Assembly (NCBI RefSeq): GCF_035594765.1
Contig: NC_085842.1
Coordinates: forward strand, 22,234,782 to 22,298,781
Origin: Anolis carolinensis
Taxonomy: Eukaryota
DNA: 64,000 bases
Direction: 5' to 3'
Program-made: the position numbers
Part shown: in pieces, positions 35,201-44,000 of the stretch
Layout of the letters: the number at the start of each line of letters is the position of its first letter
How positions within the stretch are numbered: the first letter of the stretch is position 1

Positions 35201-38200
35201 TCCAAGTCCATCTGAATATGAATAGGATAGTCTATTATCTTTAATCATTAGCATTACAGTTGCCCCTTCACATTTGTGCATTTGACTGAAAATATTCTCT
35301 CTATGAATCTCTAGATCCTCCAGAGTGACTAAGTGGTCAACGTTTCCCAGTCACTCATGAAGACCTAGAGATTTAGATTTTCCAGTGCAATTCAGTTTCT
35401 TGTAGAAGTTGACCACAGCACTGTGCTGTAAGATATAGAAATTCCTAGAAAGGTGTTTTCTCACATTTTTAAAAAAGCAATTCAATGTGTTGTTGAATGT
35501 TTTCATGGCCAAAATTACTGGGTTGCTGTGAGTTTTTCAGGCTGTATGGCCATGTTCCAGCAGCATTCTCTCCTAACATTTCATCAGTCACAAATACAGC
35601 CAAAATGTCAGGAGAGAATGTTAATGGAACATGGCCATACAGCCTGAAAAACTCACAGCAACCCAAAAAGCAATTCCTTTATTTGCTGTTATACACATTC
35701 ATAAGGGTCCTGTGAACCTCCAGCAAATATGGAGAGCGGTCTATATTTTGGGGGGAAAAACAAAAACAACTCCCGATGCTCATCAAATCATTGATGAAGA
35801 CTTGTGGAAATGGGAGTAGTCACATCAGCTCCTGATGTCAGCTCTTGGATTATACTTCTCCCCTTTCCACCCTATATGAATGGATTTGGATAATTATTGG
35901 CTATTTTTAAATTTTAATTGAACCTGATTTCAAGATTTATCACTGTTGATGCTTCTCCTATTTTATAATAGTTATCTAGCTGTATATATCTAGCTGTACA
36001 TATCTAGATGTATACATTCTTATAAATGTGACACATTGCCTATATGATGGTCACCTGATTGTACCGGGCCTTATAACTTAGGATGTCCAGATATGTTGTA
36101 CTACCTTCAGTGGTTTTGTACCCTTGATATTTTTCACAGGGCTAACTATTGTCCTATTTACACGTTTTAAAAATTACAGCTACCCCTCCACATTTGCGGA
36201 TTTAACTGCTGTGGATGAGATTATTCTCAGAATTGCTTGATATGTCCTCCAGCATGATTCCACAGACTATAGCACTGGAGAATCTAGAGCAGTGGTTCTC
36301 AACCTGTGGATCCCCAGATGTTTTGGCCTTCAAATCCCAGAAATCCTAACAGTTGATAAATTGGCTGGGATTTCTGGGAGTTGTAGGACAAAAAAACTGG
36401 GCACCGACAGATTAAGAACCACTTGTCTAGAGATTCTTAAAGAAAAGTCTCCTCTCTGGAGAAAAAAAACCCGTTTTTTTTTTTAAAAAAATCACATTTT
36501 TGTACTTTTGCAGGGATCCTGCACCCATAACCACCATAAAAGTGAAAGGCCTAGTGTATCTCCTCCTAGTGTATCACTGCTGCATCATTTTGGGTGTTTT
36601 GCTTCTTTAAGAGATCCTCTCTTGTTTTCTCTTTTTTGAGAGTGAATAATCAACCTTCATAAAAGTGGGGGGTCTATAATATCTATTTGAAGGGAAATAA
36701 CATAAAAAGACTCTCTTTTCTACTCCACTCTCTTTTGACATCTAGCTCGTTTAAGACATCCTCTCTTGTTTGAGAATGGATAATACATCTTCACCTGGAA
36801 GCATTTCGCCATCCTCAGCTGAATGGCCAAAGAAGGCCTTTGAAACAATGGTGCCTTTGTTGTAGCAAAGTCCTTGAAATATTGGTTAGGCACTATTCAT
36901 AAAGTAGTTTGCCAGAGTATCTCTCACTAGCATCCCATTCTGCTGATCTTCAAGCGATGTTGGGAATGAGAGGAGTCCCTCGGGGGCCTGGTCAAACACA
37001 CTCTGGTCTTCCGAACACAGCGCATCCACCAAATCGTGCCCACGGTTTTCGCATATATTGTGGAGGACGACACACCCCACGACGACAGGGATGATATTGT
37101 CTTCCGACACCTCCAAGCGTGTGGCCAAGCATTTCCACCGGCCCTTCAGCCGCCCGAAGGCAAGTTCGGCGATCTTCTTGCAGTCCTCCAGTCGGGAGTT
37201 GAAACGCCTTTTGGACGGGTCGAGGTTGTCAGTGAAGGGAGTCATAAGCCATCGCTTCAAGGGATAGGAGGCGTCAGCCAAGATCAATGGGGGAATCTCG
37301 ACATTGCCAATGGTCAAGGTGGGATTCCCGGGCACAAAAGACCCCTGGTCCATGCCGTCGCACAGCACCTGGTTTCGGAAGAAGGAGGCGTTTTCATCTT
37401 TGCCACACCAGCTAAGTTCGATATCGACGAAACGGCCCCTGTGGTCCACAAGGGCTTGCAACGACATCGGGAAGAAGCCCTTCTGGCTGACGCTGGTCCC
37501 CTTCCGCACGGTGCAGAGGATGGGGATCTGGGTCCGGTCCACAACCCCCACGCAGTTTGGGAAGCGCATATTCGCAAATCCTGCCATGACCTTCAGAAAT
37601 ATAAGGAGACAATGTTAGAAAGAGTCTGTGTGCTTAACTCCCACTACTATCTAGATCAGGCATGGGCAAACTTCAGTCCTCCAGGTGTTTTGGACTTCAA
37701 CTACTGGCTGTTACGAATTGTGGGAGTTGAAGTCCAAAACACCAGGAGAGCCAAAGTTTGCTCATGCCTGATCTAGATCATGGTTTCTTAAACCTTTTCC
37801 ACTAGCCATTCCTCTCCACTTGAGAAATATTTACATGACTCCAGGTATAAAAATCAAACATTTACTGAAAATAAATAGTCATTTGCCACAGTGGTCCATG
37901 CTCTTGTTACGTTGAGAATAGATTACAGCAACGCGCTCTACGTGGGGTTATCTTTGAAGACTGTTCGGAAGCTTCAAATATGTTTAATGGTTTTAATGAT
38001 TTTAATTTATAGCTATATGTGTTTAGTTATTATGATTTTTTCTATGATATGTATGTTGGCACTGAATTTCTGCCATTAATATAGTAAATAAATAAATAAA
38101 TTTGCATGGCTTGCTAAACAGGCTGATCCTTCTTTTTGTGGAGTACATTTTCAGCAGAGTCCACTGTAAACACTGCACATTGTTGCTAACAGACTTGTAT

Positions 38201-41059: not shown

Positions 41060-44000
41060 GTTTAACTTATCCAAGATAAACGGGCCGGCAGAACATTGGA
41101 TAAGTGAAAATCTTGGATAATAAGGAGGGATTAAGAAAAAAGCCTATTACACATAAAATAAAATTACATTATGATTTTACAAATTAAGCACCAAAACATC
41201 ACATTTTACAAGAAATTGACAGAAAAAGCAGTTCAATACACAGTAATGTTATGTAGTAACGAATTTAGCCCCAAAACATTGCAACATTTACTACAAAAAC
41301 AATGACTACTAAAAGGCAGACTGCCTTGGATAATACAGAAGCTTGGATAAGTGAAGCTTGGATATGTGAGACTCTACTGTACTTGCATTCTCTTTGATCC
41401 CTTAATGGCTTCAAATAGGTGGTAATATTGCAAGAAAGCATTTAAAGAGGGCAAAATGAACAAGCTGGAAGAAAAAAATGAAGGAAGAATGGGAAATTAT
41501 AGGAAATGAATTAAGTCACAGCTTAGGTTCCCCCAAAGTTTCAACCAAATAGGAAGTAAGATCTATATATTGCAGGCTTGGGCCAATTTGGGCCTTCCAA
41601 GTGTTTTGGACTGCAACTCCCACCATTCCTCACAGCCTCAGGCCCTTTCCTTTTCCCCCTCAGCCGCTTAAGCGGCTGAGGGGGAAAAGGAAGGGGCCTG
41701 AGGCTGTGAGGAATGGTGGGAGTTGCAGTCCAAAACACCTAGAAGGCCCAAGCTGGCCCAGGCCTGGTCTATACCTCACTTGGCTTCTCTTCTATCTGGC
41801 TTCAATCTCTGCTCCTTTGCCACCCCTCAAAAAGGTTTGAAAGCTAAAGGTTTAAAACGATAGAGCAGCGTATCCTAGACTAGTATTTTCTCAACCCTCT
41901 TCTTCCACTTTGGACTTCACTTCCCAGAATCCTTGATCATAGGCCAAACCAGCTGAGGCATCTGGGAGTTGAAGTCACTTAGATCGCTGAACGTGGGGGC
42001 GTGAGCGTACGCGCTGACGTCATCCACCCTCCAACATGTTTTGGACTCCACTTCCCAGAGTTCTCTCCCATTGGCGAGCCCAAGCAGAGGCTTCTGGGAG
42101 TTGGAGTCCCAAAACCGCTGAACGGGGAACGCTTGGTCCAATGGGGAAACCGCTCTCAAGGCGTCAGGAGAGCAGGAGGCCTGGATGGGCAGGGCGCCAT
42201 TTCTTGTCCATTGTGGGGGCCAAAATGGCGCCTGCTCAATCTTAAAGGTGAAGAGTCGTTTAAATAGCTTAGAATAAGGCAGAAAAGGAAACTCTGTAGG
42301 GGTGTTAGCTCTTCCTTATTGCTATCCAAAGCTATTTGGCTGGAGTTGAACTTAAAAAATGGATGTGAACACCTGTGGAATGTCCAGGGTGAGAGAAATA
42401 ACTCTTGTCTGAGGCAAGTTATGCTAATGCTAATTTTATATACATATACATATATATAATATACAATAATTTATAAATATATATTGTATATACATATAAT
42501 ATTGATAATAATATTATAATTTAATACATTATACTAATAATAATACAATATAATAATATTAATTATATATTGTATAATAAATGTAATATTACTAATAATA
42601 TTACTATATAATGATATAGTACAATATAGTAATTTAATGCTTATATTGTGCTATGCTAATAATATATTGTATGTACATTTGATTTGTAAGCCGCTCTGAA
42701 GTCCCCTTCGGGGTGAGAAGAGCGGGATATAAATGTAATAAAATAAATAAATAAGTGTATATGATGCAATTGGCAACCTTAATTAGCATTGAATGGCCCT
42801 GCAGCTTCAAAGACTGTCTGCTTCCTGCTTTGGGAGGAATCCTTTGTTGGGTGGTATTAGCTAGCCCAGGCTTTGAAGCTGCAAAGCTATCCAGTGCTAA
42901 TCAAGGTGGCCAATTGCAACTTCCACACTTGCCAGATATGAACCCCACTTGCCTTAGTTTCCAACAGACCTCACAACCTCTGAGAATGCTTGCCATAGAT
43001 GTGGGCAAAACATCAGGAGAGAATGCTTCTAGAACATGGCCACACAGCCCGGAAAACTCACAGCAAACCAGTGATTCTGGCCATAAAAGCCTTCAACAAC
43101 ATATCAGCAATATGTTTTATATACAGTAGAGTCTCACTAATCCAAGCTAAACGGGCCGGCAGAAGATTGGATAAGCGAATATCTTGGATAATAAGGAGGG
43201 ATTAAGGAAAAGCCTGTTAAACATCAAATTAGGTTATGATTTTACAAATTAAGCACCAAAACATCATGTTTTACGACAAATTTGACAGAAAAAGCAGTTC
43301 AATATGCAGTAATGTTATGTTGTAATTACTGTATTTACGAATTTAGCACCAAAATATCACGATATATTGAAAACATTGACTACAAAAATAGCTTGGATAA
43401 TCCAGAACGTTGGATAAGTGAGACTCTATTGTATTACAATATAGTAATTTAACGCTTATATTGTGCTATGCTAATAATATATTGTATGTACATTTGATTT
43501 GTAAGCCGCTCTGAGTCCCCTTCGGGGTGAGAAGAGCGGGATATAAATGTAATAAATAAATAAATAAATAAGTGTATATGATGCAATTGGCAACCTTGAT
43601 TAGCATTGAATGGCCGTGCAGCTTCAAAGACTGGCTGCTTCCTGCTTTGGGGGGAATCCTTTGTTGGGTGGTATTAGCTATCTCAGGCTTTGAAGCTACA
43701 AAGATATTTAATGCTAATCAAGGTGGCCAATTACAACTTCCACACTTGCCTCAAACAGACAGGAGTTCTTTTTCCCACCCTGGACATTATTCCATAGATA
43801 TATAAACCCCACTTGCCTAGTTTCCAATAGGCTTCACAACCTCTGAGGATGCCTGCCACAAATGTGGGCAAAACATGAGGAGAGAATGCTTCTGGAACAT
43901 GGCCACACAGCCCGGAAAACTCACAGCAAACCAGTGATTCCGGCCATGAAAGCCTTCGACAACATATCAGCAATATCTTCTATCTATCTATATATATAAA

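What the first reader, a model, noticed from the sequence alone, without database searches (positions are those of the whole stretch)
36886..42240. Apparently domesticated Harbinger transposase gene inside a SCAN-ZNF cluster
Seen: an intact 423-aa two-exon ORF with a strong Kozak start and CpG-rich exons, a 2.1-kb intron full of decayed TEs, a housekeeping-type promoter, no enclosing TIR/TSD and no Myb/SANT partner ORF in the window. Compared with typical Harbinger motifs, IDGTH is VDRTQ, NRK is SQK and the conserved HD is EN (GKDENA), while the LAD aspartate and the ELAFG glutamate remain. Established: HARBI1 and plant ALP1/HDP1 are domesticated Harbinger nucleases that act with Myb/SANT-type partners, the plant ones in chromatin complexes. 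Inference: a separate, probably catalytically impaired reptile domestication that may work with neighbouring ZNF or SANT proteins.
Basis: partly seen in the sequence, partly recalled or inferred. Interest (0 to 1): 0.75.

Follow-up and report, generated by a model that had tools for sequence, protein, structure and literature searches.

The report
Lizard gene tamed from Harbinger transposase
This is a real, intact green-anole gene that descends from a Harbinger "jumping gene" enzyme and has been kept in lizards and geckos for a very long time, but genes of this kind were already reported in the anole and this one is already in the public annotation as an uncharacterised protein.

Summary
The minus strand carries a two-exon, 423-aa ORF. 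The CDS is 40263..39697 and 37590..36889, the stop is 36888..36886, and a GT..AG intron of 2106 nt separates the exons.

Each exon is 100% identical to the Anolis carolinensis RefSeq protein LOC103278110. Exon 2 is a DDE_Tnp_4 (PIF/Harbinger) nuclease domain. Exon 1 is the usual Harbinger N-terminal DUF8040/HTH region.

Full-length orthologues of 422-423 aa exist in Sceloporus and four geckos. Podarcis has a truncated form. Together they form one clade with 100% support, a long stem and short tips, nested among squamate-only paralogues. Several of those paralogues are fused to KRAB or SCAN+KRAB.

I found no TIRs, no second copy and no Myb/SANT ORF nearby. This is therefore a squamate-wide domesticated transposase and not HARBI1.

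The D-D-E triad is intact in Anolis, but the glutamate is glycine in two geckos. The N-terminal half is better conserved (85-91%) than the nuclease half (71-76%). I infer a non-catalytic adaptor role with a Myb-like partner; this was not tested.

Novick et al. 2010 already reported domesticated Harbinger ORFs in the anole, so this is a new member of a known kind. dN/dS, synteny and RNA-seq could not be checked.

The parts
41780..42240 (-). Putative non-coding first exon plus promoter patch (unverified)
   Evidence: Donor CAA|GTGAGG follows 41780. TGACGTCA lies at 42022-42015. The 41950-42260 stretch has GC 0.57 and CpG o/e 0.63. The frame leading into the ATG holds three stops. No transcript data were seen.
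40295..41779 (-). Putative 5'UTR intron (unverified)
   Evidence: It is bounded by GT at 41779-41778 and AG at 40296-40295. It holds a dispersed palindromic repeat at 41566-41773.
39697..40294 (-). Exon 1: 31 nt of leader plus CDS 40263..39697 (189 aa). It encodes the Harbinger N-terminal DUF8040/HTH region.
   Evidence: The translation is 100% identical to residues 1-189 of NCBI LOC103278110. HTH_Tnp_4 matches only below threshold, E 0.023. PF26138 is precomputed on the record and is named DUF8040. The all-helical model has pLDDT above 90 for residues 80-180.
37591..39696 (-). Intron, 2106 nt, GT..AG
   Evidence: Searches show the boundaries. CpG o/e is 0.18. Repeat copies lie at 37649-37778 and 39255-39483.
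36886..37590 (-). Exon 2: CDS 37590..36889 (234 aa) plus stop 36888-36886. It encodes the DDE_Tnp_4 nuclease domain.
   Evidence: Pfam PF13359 matches at E 3.6e-21, 75.9 bits against a cut-off of 24.8. The translation is 100% identical to residues 190-423 of LOC103278110. The model has pLDDT 88 and an RNase H-like order of strands and helices.
37537..37539 (-). Codon of D207, the first triad aspartate (in VDRTQ)
   Evidence: GAC. The family column is D in 86% of 187 relatives and in 8 of 8 orthologues. It lies on the first strand of the model.
37273..37275 (-). Codon of D295, the second triad aspartate (in LAD)
   Evidence: GAC. The column is D in 87% of relatives and in 8 of 8 orthologues. 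It lies just after strand 102-104 of the exon-2 model.
37165..37167 (-). Codon of E331, the triad glutamate (in AELAFG)
   Evidence: GAA. The column is E in 90% of relatives and in 6 of 8 orthologues; it is G in Gekko and Sphaerodactylus. It lies on helix 125-151 of the model.

Best explanation
The locus is a host gene, Anolis carolinensis LOC103278110, that arose by domestication of a PIF/Harbinger transposase. This happened before the split of geckos from other squamates.

It has lost the transposon ends and the Myb-like second gene. It has an ordinary exon-intron structure and is inherited vertically as a low-copy gene.

Inferred mechanism: the protein no longer moves DNA. It acts as an adaptor. 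Its strongly conserved N-terminal helical/HTH half keeps the ancestral ability to bind a Myb/SANT-trihelix partner; candidates are the vertebrate Harbinger-derived NAIF1 and MSANTD proteins. The partner would carry it into the nucleus and to DNA. The RNase H-like half would serve mainly as a scaffold, and in at least some species it is catalytically dead.

Shown here: gene structure, family membership, the orthologue set, the tree, residue states, and the absence of TIRs and of a Myb ORF. Inferred: purifying selection, partner binding, and loss of catalysis in Anolis.
For: **Gene and family**
- Each exon is 100% identical to the 423-aa RefSeq protein.
- DDE_Tnp_4 matches at E 3.6e-21.

**Orthologues**
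- In the exon-2 search, 10 of 35 hits are 71-100% identical and 422-430 aa long. They are Anolis, Sceloporus, Gekko, Euleptes, Paroedura, Sphaerodactylus and four unnamed contigs. The other 25 hits are 34-48% identical.
- The exon-1 search finds the same 10 at 85-100%.
- A profile search adds a 244-aa Podarcis muralis record and two unnamed exon-2-only ORFs.
- In the 50%-identity library only one representative exceeds 52% identity.

**Trees**
- The orthologue clade has 100% support, a stem of 0.55-0.68 and tips of 0.03-0.12.
- Its order is geckos, then (Anolis, Sceloporus) beside (Podarcis, unnamed).
- It sits inside a 37-row squamate-only clade with 99% support.

**Not a transposon copy**
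- There is one copy in the window.
- The flanking inverted repeats are dispersed repeats.
- 0 of 115 neighbouring ORFs match a Myb/SANT family.

**The N-terminal half is the better kept half**
- All 7 full-length orthologues keep the family consensus at 26 of 28 conserved exon-1 columns.
- All 8 orthologues keep it at only 35 of 57 conserved exon-2 columns.

**Catalysis appears dispensable**
- E331 is G in Gekko and Sphaerodactylus, while their relatives Paroedura and Euleptes keep E. That implies at least two changes.
- One triad mutation drastically reduces transposition by PING, as stated in PMC4671723 (passage).

**Partner logic**
- Myb-like proteins import the Harbinger transposase through an N-terminal interaction, and HARBI1 binds NAIF1 (PMC9392472, passages).

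**Transcript-like evidence**
- Four unnamed contigs of 1.4-2.0 kb hold uninterrupted ORFs of 422-430 aa.
- Contigs of about 1 kb hold ORFs that begin at the second residue of exon 2.
- This fits spliced mRNA and a conserved intron position in other species.
Against: - The full D-D-E triad is present in Anolis and in 6 of 8 orthologues, so nuclease activity is not excluded.
- No dN/dS could be computed, because no orthologous DNA could be fetched. Selection is inferred only from intact ORFs and short branches.
- No synteny data and no RNA-seq were available.
- No full-length orthologue appeared for snakes, Pogona, Varanus, Salvator, Rhineura, Elgaria or Eublepharis.
- The Podarcis record changes frame after residue ~218. 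That could be decay, or an error in that record.
- No partner was identified or tested.
- Fold searches gave only non-significant matches: best E 0.022 for the nuclease half and 0.47 for the N-terminal half.
Confidence: 0.6

Rival explanations
1. The protein is a domesticated gene but still an active nuclease. In this view the host uses the DNA-cutting activity, as has been proposed for HARBI1 from its name, and the N-terminal half only targets it.
For: - D207, D295 and E331 are all present in Anolis and in 6 of 8 orthologues.
- The model places them on the first strand, just after the fourth strand, and on the following long helix. That is the canonical RNase H-like DDE layout.
- The nuclease half is still 71-76% identical across squamates.
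Against: - E331 is G in two geckos that otherwise keep an intact 422-aa protein.
- The family-wide H255 is lost in 8 of 8 orthologues.
- D256 is N in Anolis and Sceloporus, and H210 is Q in Anolis.
- The loop that carries 255-256 is the least confident part of the model, with pLDDT below 50 at exon-2 residues 67-69.
- The nuclease half keeps fewer family-conserved columns than the N-terminal half.
Confidence: 0.25
2. It is a transposon copy that is still mobile or was only recently immobilised, not a host gene.
For: - Close relatives look multi-copy in some reptiles. Clusters of 80 and 35 member sequences occur in turtles and 38 in Elgaria, and Eublepharis has many records of about 422 aa.
- The triad is intact in Anolis.
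Against: - There is a single copy in the window and no TIRs.
- There is no Myb-like ORF among 115 neighbouring ORFs.
- There is a 2.1-kb intron.
- Named full-length orthologues occur in six species, with a partial record in a seventh, and they branch as the species do with very short tips.
- Novick et al. found PIF/Harbinger extinct in the anole (PMC3014272, passage).
Confidence: 0.03
3. It is the anole orthologue of an already described gene (HARBI1), as some automatic names say.
For: Some source names read 'putative nuclease HARBI1' for the Anolis and Gekko records.
Against: - Other sources name the same orthologue group 'ALP1-like' or 'uncharacterized', so the names are automatic and inconsistent.
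- The nearest relatives outside the clade are squamate-only paralogues at 40-48% identity.
- The nearest turtle and alligator proteins reach at most 53% identity over partial alignments.
- No bird, mammal, amphibian or shark protein is among the 120 listed of 212 hits.
- HARBI1 is reported in all jawed vertebrates (PMC9392472).
- No verified HARBI1 sequence was fetched, so it was not placed in my trees.
Confidence: 0.02
4. The window copy is the last coding part of a longer fusion gene. Upstream SCAN or KRAB exons would splice into the acceptor at 40294, as in the fused paralogues.
For: - Paralogues in the sister clade carry KRAB or SCAN+KRAB in front of the whole Harbinger ORF: P0022 in Anolis and P0026 in Sceloporus (Pfam).
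- The reading frame is open for the 31 nt between the acceptor and the ATG.
- A SCAN exon lies upstream on the same strand at 51412-52278.
Against: - All 7 named orthologues start at the same MEN(L/M/I)EA methionine and are 422-423 aa, or 244 aa in Podarcis.
- No KRAB exon was found between the gene and the upstream ZNF exon. KRAB exons shorter than 50 codons could be missed.
- The proposed leader exon has in-frame stops.
- The upstream SCAN exon is followed by its own C2H2 exon at 46941-47981.
Confidence: 0.07

Closest known systems
The 'five domesticated Harbinger ORFs' of Anolis carolinensis (Novick et al. 2010, PMC3014272; passages read)
   Same: Same genome and same superfamily. The same arguments apply: intact ORF, most diagnostic motifs kept, no TIRs or TSDs, and Harbinger otherwise extinct in the anole.
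   Different: Those ORFs are given as 442-466 aa and 53-68% divergent from each other. This gene is 423 aa and split by an intron, so its longest single ORFs are 242 and 274 aa and it was probably not among them. I could not see the paper's supplements. The paper gives no cross-species orthology.
HARBI1 (vertebrate Harbinger-derived gene), with its partner NAIF1
   Same: It is a transposase-derived host gene without TIRs, with a DDE_Tnp_4 domain. The expected dependence on a Myb-like partner is the model for the mechanism proposed here (PMC9392472, passages).
   Different: HARBI1 dates to the base of jawed vertebrates. This clade is confined to squamates and nested among squamate paralogues. 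It is an independent and much younger domestication.
Plant ALP1 (with ALP2) and HDP1 (with HDP2)
   Same: These are Harbinger transposase-derived proteins kept with an N-terminal HTH-like region, and they act in chromatin complexes with a Myb-like partner. I read passages of PMC4671723. For PMC7282668 and PMC5339849 I saw only the listing and the start of the abstract.
   Different: ALP1 has DGA in place of DDE, whereas the Anolis protein keeps DDE. No chromatin complex is known here. The origin is independent, in animals.
KRAB- and SCAN-transposase fusion genes (Cosby et al. preprint 10.1101/2020.05.07.082677; abstract start and two passages seen)
   Same: The sister clade of this gene holds KRAB+DDE_Tnp_4 and SCAN+KRAB+DDE_Tnp_4 proteins. 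This gene lies inside a SCAN-ZNF cluster and has an acceptor just upstream of its ATG.
   Different: This gene is unfused. The words Harbinger and PIF do not occur in the preprint's main text. Its supplementary tables were not seen and may list the fused paralogues.
Active reptile Harbinger transposases (multi-copy relatives in turtles, Eublepharis and Elgaria)
   Same: Same domain order, about 40-50% identity, same length class.
   Different: Those relatives keep the canonical IDGTH, NRK, HD, GD and E motifs (for example P0193 and P0212) and appear as many near-identical members. This gene is low-copy and departs from the family consensus at 13 of 57 conserved nuclease-domain columns. I did not check those relatives for TIRs.

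Membership tests
PIF/Harbinger transposase superfamily (protein homology) | DDE_Tnp_4 (PF13359) domain above the curated cut-off | tested here: met
   Exon 2 scores 75.9 bits against a cut-off of 24.8, E 3.6e-21.
PIF/Harbinger transposase superfamily (protein homology) | D-D-E triad in the conserved motifs | tested here: met
   D207, D295 and E331 lie in columns that are D, D and E in 86%, 87% and 90% of 187 relatives. 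That these columns are the catalytic triad is recalled from the literature and fits the model topology.
PIF/Harbinger transposase superfamily (protein homology) | N-terminal helical/HTH region typical of these transposases (DUF8040 / HTH_Tnp_4) | tested here: inconclusive
   PF26138 is precomputed on the record and is named DUF8040 by the Atlas (score 0.96, but carried by only 16% of that cluster's members). The local Pfam copy gave only HTH_Tnp_4 at E 0.023, below the cut-off. The fold search found HTH proteins only at E of about 0.5.
Autonomous Harbinger transposon (mobile element) | Terminal inverted repeats with TAA/TTA target duplication around the ORF | tested here: not met
   The inverted pairs within 34-45 kb are copies of dispersed repeats with 9-13 matches in the window.
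Autonomous Harbinger transposon (mobile element) | Second ORF for a Myb/SANT-trihelix protein in the same element | tested here: not met
   0 of 115 ORFs of 50 aa or more between 31.4 and 46.9 kb match such a family. Shorter exons could be missed.
Autonomous Harbinger transposon (mobile element) | Multiple near-identical copies in the genome | tested here: inconclusive
   There is one copy in the 64-kb window, and the record's cluster has 4 member sequences on 1 contig. The rest of the genome could not be searched.
Domesticated transposase gene | Orthologues in several species whose tree follows the species tree | tested here: met
   The clade has 9-10 rows and 100% support. Geckos branch first, then Iguania and Lacertidae.
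Domesticated transposase gene | Purifying selection (dN/dS well below 1) | not testable with these tools
   No orthologous coding DNA could be fetched. The only indirect signs are intact ORFs of 422-423 aa in six named species and tips of 0.03-0.12 after a stem of 0.55-0.68.
Domesticated transposase gene | Conserved genomic position (synteny) | not testable with these tools
   No eukaryote genome collection was open. I could only see that the orthologue and a KRAB or SCAN-KRAB paralogue share the same longest-contig length in Sceloporus (334,326,159) and in Sphaerodactylus (179,686,242).
Domesticated transposase gene | Transcription and splicing as a host gene | tested here: inconclusive
   Unnamed contigs of 1.4-2.0 kb carry the whole ORF without an intron. 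Contigs of about 1 kb carry ORFs that start at exon-2 residue 2. No Anolis RNA data were available.
HARBI1 orthologue group | Orthologues throughout jawed vertebrates | tested here: not met
   Above 53% identity only squamates appear. No bird, mammal, amphibian or cartilaginous-fish protein is among the 120 listed of 212 hits. The distribution of HARBI1 is taken from PMC9392472.
ALP1-type inactive Harbinger derivative | Loss of one or more triad residues | tested here: not met
   Anolis keeps DDE. Only Gekko and Sphaerodactylus have DDG.
KRAB/SCAN host-transposase fusion | KRAB or SCAN coding exon joined in frame to the transposase ORF | tested here: not met
   There are no KRAB or SCAN hits between 31.4 and 46.9 kb other than the neighbouring genes' own exons. 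The leader exon has in-frame stops. The database model starts at the ATG.

The most novel reading that the evidence does not exclude
This gene is the unfused and most conserved member of a squamate-specific Harbinger-derived gene family that lives in SCAN/KRAB zinc-finger clusters. The family has been captured repeatedly by KRAB and SCAN exons.

The part under selection is the N-terminal partner-binding/HTH module, not the nuclease. Three observations point that way:
- the catalytic glutamate was lost twice in geckos;
- the Podarcis record keeps only the N-terminal part in frame;
- identity is 85-91% in the N-terminal half against 71-76% in the nuclease half.

On this reading the protein links a Myb-like DNA binder (NAIF1/MSANTD type) to KRAB/SCAN repression machinery. 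It would be an animal counterpart of plant ALP1-ALP2 that is about 200 million years old.
Probability: 0.15. Interest if true: 0.7.

Novelty: new member of a known kind. Interest (0 to 1): 0.4.

Why it matters
In the papers I could search, HARBI1 is the only Harbinger transposase-derived vertebrate gene with any functional study, and its role is still unknown.

A second, independent and lineage-restricted domestication offers a natural comparison. It has clear orthologues across squamates, a sister clade of KRAB and SCAN fusions, and natural variants that lack the catalytic glutamate. Together these could show which part of a Harbinger transposase hosts actually reuse.

It also bears on how transposase genes are captured by zinc-finger gene clusters. 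As an isolated annotation, however, it is an ordinary uncharacterised RefSeq gene of a kind reported in 2010.

Tried and rejected
- **Sequence search of solved structures.** Exon 2 found nothing related; best E was 0.79, against unrelated proteins.
- **Fold search, nuclease half.** The best matches were TnsB, Mos1 and retroviral integrase at E 0.02-0.05 and TM about 0.3. None reached E 0.001.
- **Fold search, N-terminal half.** The best matches were HTH proteins ArdK and KorA at E of about 0.5, not significant.
- **Cluster membership look-up.** It was meant to name more species and count copies.
- **Supplements of PMC3014272.** They were closed, so I cannot say whether this locus is one of the five published ORFs.
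- **Literature searches with no hits.**
  - 'host-transposase fusion' + KRAB + Harbinger: 0 papers.
  - Harbinger + transposase-derived + squamates: 0 papers.
  - LOC103278110: 0 papers.
  - One search failed on a term-syntax error and was corrected.
- **TIR reading of the 135-nt inverted pair 34070-34204 / 42936-43070.** Rejected, because the same repeat has 13 matches in the window.
- **Coding extension through the putative leader exon.** Rejected, because the frame holds stops.
- **Poly(A) signal.** The nearest minus-strand AATAAA downstream of the stop is at 35678-35683, about 1.2 kb away. The 3' end is left open.
- **Complex prediction.** Not used. No candidate partner sequence was in hand, and neighbourhood alone is not reason enough.
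- **Joined two-exon model.** I never sent it to a search. Each exon was searched on its own.
- **Closed collections.** Genome-wide copy number, synteny and dN/dS therefore stayed unchecked.

Full report
**1. What is in the sequence**

On the minus strand an ATG at 40263 sits in the context aaccATGg. It opens 189 codons that end at 39697, before a GT donor. After an intron of 2106 nt, an AG acceptor precedes 37590. From there 234 codons run to a TAA at 36888-36886.

Each was searched alone. The exon-2 translation is 100% identical over its whole length to the NCBI protein 'uncharacterized protein LOC103278110 [Anolis carolinensis]', 423 aa. The exon-1 translation is 100% identical to the same record. 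The printed record is exon 1 followed by exon 2. The window is therefore green anole DNA, and the gene model is already in RefSeq. Nothing in the window or among the hits was taken for human.

**2. Family**

Exon 2 matches Pfam DDE_Tnp_4 at E 3.6e-21, 75.9 bits against a cut-off of 24.8. This is the nuclease domain of PIF/Harbinger and IS5-type transposases.

Exon 1 gives only sub-threshold HTH matches (HTH_Tnp_4, E 0.023). The database record carries PF26138, which the protein Atlas names DUF8040.

AlphaFold models were built exon by exon on alignments of 91 and 81 relatives.
- The nuclease half has mean pLDDT 88. D207 lies on the first strand, D295 just after strand 102-104, and E331 on the long helix 125-151. 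That is the RNase H-like DDE order.
- The N-terminal half is all-helical, with pLDDT above 90 for residues 80-180 and lower confidence for the first 80 residues.
- Fold searches against the PDB gave no significant match. The best were DDE transposases and integrases at E 0.02-0.05, and HTH proteins at E of about 0.5.
- A sequence search of the PDB found nothing related.

**3.

I aligned 187 relatives of 300 aa or more with eight orthologues. 85 columns are at least 80% conserved in the relatives.

| Column | Family consensus | State in the orthologues |
|---|---|---|
| D207 | D | kept in 8 of 8 |
| D295 | D | kept in 8 of 8 |
| E331 | E | kept in 6 of 8; G in Gekko japonicus and Sphaerodactylus townsendi |
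| H210 | H | Q in Anolis only |
| N224 | N | S in 7 of 8 |
| H255 | H | lost in 8 of 8 |
| D256 | D | N in Anolis and Sceloporus |

Anolis departs from the family consensus at 13 of the 57 conserved exon-2 columns. It departs at only 2 of the 28 conserved exon-1 columns. All 7 full-length orthologues keep 26 of those 28. That D207, D295 and E331 are the catalytic triad is recalled knowledge that agrees with the model topology.

**4. Transposon or gene?**

- tblastn with ten family members finds only these two exons in the 64-kb window.
- The long inverted repeats around the gene are copies of dispersed repeats with 13, 13 and 9 matches in the window. They are not Harbinger TIRs.
- Of 117 N-free ORFs of 50 aa or more between the flanking SCAN exon (ending at 31399) and the C2H2 exon (starting at 46941), I scanned 115. 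The two left out are the gene's own exons. None matches a Myb/SANT, MADF, KRAB or SCAN family. One is a reverse-transcriptase fragment.
- The exons stand out from their surroundings. CpG o/e is 0.57 and 0.77 in the exons, against 0.18 in the intron and 0.20-0.27 in the flanks.

**5. Relatives elsewhere**

- The exon-2 search among longer proteins returned 35 hits from 772 candidates.
  - Ten of them are 71-100% identical and 422-430 aa long.
  - They are Anolis, Sceloporus undulatus, Gekko japonicus, Euleptes europaea, Paroedura picta, Sphaerodactylus townsendi and four unnamed contigs.
  - The remaining 25 are 34-48% identical.
- The exon-1 search returned 16 hits from 1195 candidates and found the same ten at 85-100%. 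The next six reach 53-64% over about 60% of the query.
- In the exhaustive search of 50%-identity representatives (8242 hits at E up to 0.001), only the gene's own cluster exceeds 52% identity.
- A profile of the other species' orthologues returned 212 hits at E up to 1e-20, of which 120 are listed.
  - It added a 244-aa Podarcis muralis record and two unnamed exon-2-only ORFs.
  - The best non-squamate hits are alligator and turtle proteins at 44-53%.
- No full-length orthologue appeared for snakes, Pogona, Varanus, Salvator, Rhineura, Elgaria or Eublepharis.
  - This may mean loss, missing annotation, or membership in a 90%-identity cluster.

**6. Trees**

Two quick maximum-likelihood trees were built, with 72 and 63 rows. 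Support is SH-aLRT only.

- Both recover the orthologue group at 100% support, on a stem of 0.55-0.68 changes per site, with tips of only 0.03-0.12.
- In the named tree the geckos branch first, then an unnamed lineage. (Anolis, Sceloporus) then stands at 98% beside (Podarcis, unnamed). This is what vertical descent in squamates predicts.
- The clade is sister to 28 squamate-only paralogues (100%). Together they form a 37-row squamate clade (99%).
- Alligator, turtle, fish and hemichordate sequences lie outside.
- A long stem followed by slow, species-tree-like divergence is the usual signature of domestication.
- On recalled dates, the gecko split puts the event at roughly 200 million years ago or earlier.

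**7. Signs of expression and a conserved intron in other species**

This paragraph is inference. Four unnamed contigs of 1429-2048 nt hold uninterrupted ORFs of 422-430 aa, which leaves no room for an intron. Other contigs of about 1.0 kb hold ORFs that begin at the methionine that is residue 2 of exon 2 (P0188 and P0190). P0188 matches the exon-2 part of P0007 letter for letter. This fits spliced mRNA plus genomic DNA with an intron at the same place. I did not try to find where these records came from.

**8. Which half matters**

Identity to Anolis is 85-91% in exon 1 and 71-76% in exon 2.

The triad glutamate is G in one gekkonid and one sphaerodactylid, while Paroedura and Euleptes keep E. 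That implies at least two changes (the family assignments are recalled). According to PMC4671723 (passage), mutating one triad residue drastically reduces transposition by the rice element PING, and ALP1 has DGA in place of DDE.

The Podarcis record follows the orthologues to about residue 218. Its tail then matches the other reading frame of the Anolis exon: GDQHQPKGVLP... in Podarcis against GDQRQPEGLLP... in Anolis. This is a frameshift, which may be real or an error in that record.

Together these observations suggest that catalysis is not the conserved function. Even so, the Anolis protein itself keeps DDE, so activity is not excluded.

**9. Likely mechanism**

This section is inferred. 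In Harbinger elements the Myb-like protein imports the transposase through an N-terminal interaction and binds the DNA ends. HARBI1 binds NAIF1, and vertebrates hold four more Harbinger-derived Myb-like genes, MSANTD1-4 (PMC9392472, passages).

The best-supported reading is therefore an adaptor whose conserved N-terminal half binds such a partner, with the nuclease fold kept mainly as a scaffold. No partner was identified, and no binding test was run.

**10. Setting**

The gene lies in a tandem SCAN-C2H2 cluster whose exons are all on the same strand.

Its sister clade includes KRAB+DDE_Tnp_4 proteins such as Anolis LOC103280956, Pogona, Python, Liasis, Salvator and Sphaerodactylus. It also includes SCAN+KRAB+DDE_Tnp_4 proteins such as Sceloporus LOC121922960. 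The domains of the Anolis and Sceloporus examples were confirmed by Pfam. The domains of the others are precomputed annotations.

The window gene itself is unfused.
- There is no KRAB hit.
- The proposed leader exon (donor after 41780, acceptor before 40294) has three in-frame stops and no later ATG.
- That leader exon and the small CpG-enriched patch with TGACGTCA are plausible, but they are unverified without transcripts.

**11. What is known**

- Novick et al. 2010 (PMC3014272, passages) reported five anole ORFs of 442-466 aa related to Harbinger transposases, without TIRs or TSDs, and called them domestications.
- This gene is 423 aa and split by an intron, so it was probably not one of them.
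- Searches for the locus name and for Harbinger-derived genes in squamates or lizards found no paper on this gene or its orthologue family.
- The Cosby et al. preprint on KRAB-transposase fusions does not contain the words Harbinger or PIF in its main text. Its supplements were not seen and may list the fused paralogues.

**12. Verdict**

Partnership with neighbours is untested.

This is a new member of a known kind: an annotated but uncharacterised squamate-wide Harbinger-derived gene. Interest is moderate.

Left open for lack of data are genome-wide copy number, synteny, dN/dS, Anolis transcripts and placement against verified HARBI1.

Noticed in passing
window 4728-9665 (+): An uninterrupted 1645-codon gag-pol ORF of a Ty3/gypsy-type LTR retrotransposon. 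It carries capsid, protease, RT, RNase H, integrase and SH3 domains. It looks like a young or intact copy. LTRs were not looked for.
   Followed up: partly
window 10039-11169 (-) and 24738-25829 (-): Two C2H2 zinc-finger exons with nearly the same translation. With the SCAN exons at 17290-18132 and 30665-31399, this suggests a recent tandem duplication of a SCAN-ZNF gene unit.
   Followed up: no
database proteins P0022 (Anolis LOC103280956), P0026 (Sceloporus LOC121922960), P0016, P0024, P0038, P0040, P0045, P0197, P0199: Harbinger transposase ORFs fused behind KRAB or SCAN+KRAB domains occur in several squamates and one turtle. In the trees the squamate ones fall in more than one place in the sister clade, which hints at repeated capture or repeated loss of the added exons.
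   Followed up: partly
database proteins P0182, P0184, P0186, P0236, P0237, P0250, P0274: A second, slowly evolving Harbinger-derived group is shared by teiid, amphisbaenian, lacertid, snakes and alligator (99% support, tips 0.01-0.15 within squamates). In the three lizard records I read, both triad aspartates are replaced by glycine. It looks like an older sauropsid domestication that is catalytically dead.
   Followed up: partly
database protein P0189 (Podarcis muralis, 244 aa): This orthologue record keeps exon 1 at 82% identity to Sceloporus. It then shifts into another reading frame about 29 residues into exon 2. The cause could be a truncated gene, decay, or a sequencing error.
   Followed up: partly
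database proteins P0191 and P0192 (Alligator sinensis): These are a pair of alligator paralogues. One has canonical IDGTH and GD motifs. The other has N in place of both aspartates.
   Followed up: no
window 41566-41773, 34966-35165, 37649-37778, 55097-55167: A palindromic MITE-like repeat of about 200 nt with arms that are 91-96% complementary. It has several copies in the window, including copies in both putative introns of the gene.
   Followed up: partly
window 42240-42195 (-): Two inverted GCGCCAT-type motifs (CGCCATTTT and AAATGGCG) lie about 30 nt apart, just upstream of the CpG-enriched patch. By recall they resemble YY1 sites. This was not tested.
   Followed up: no
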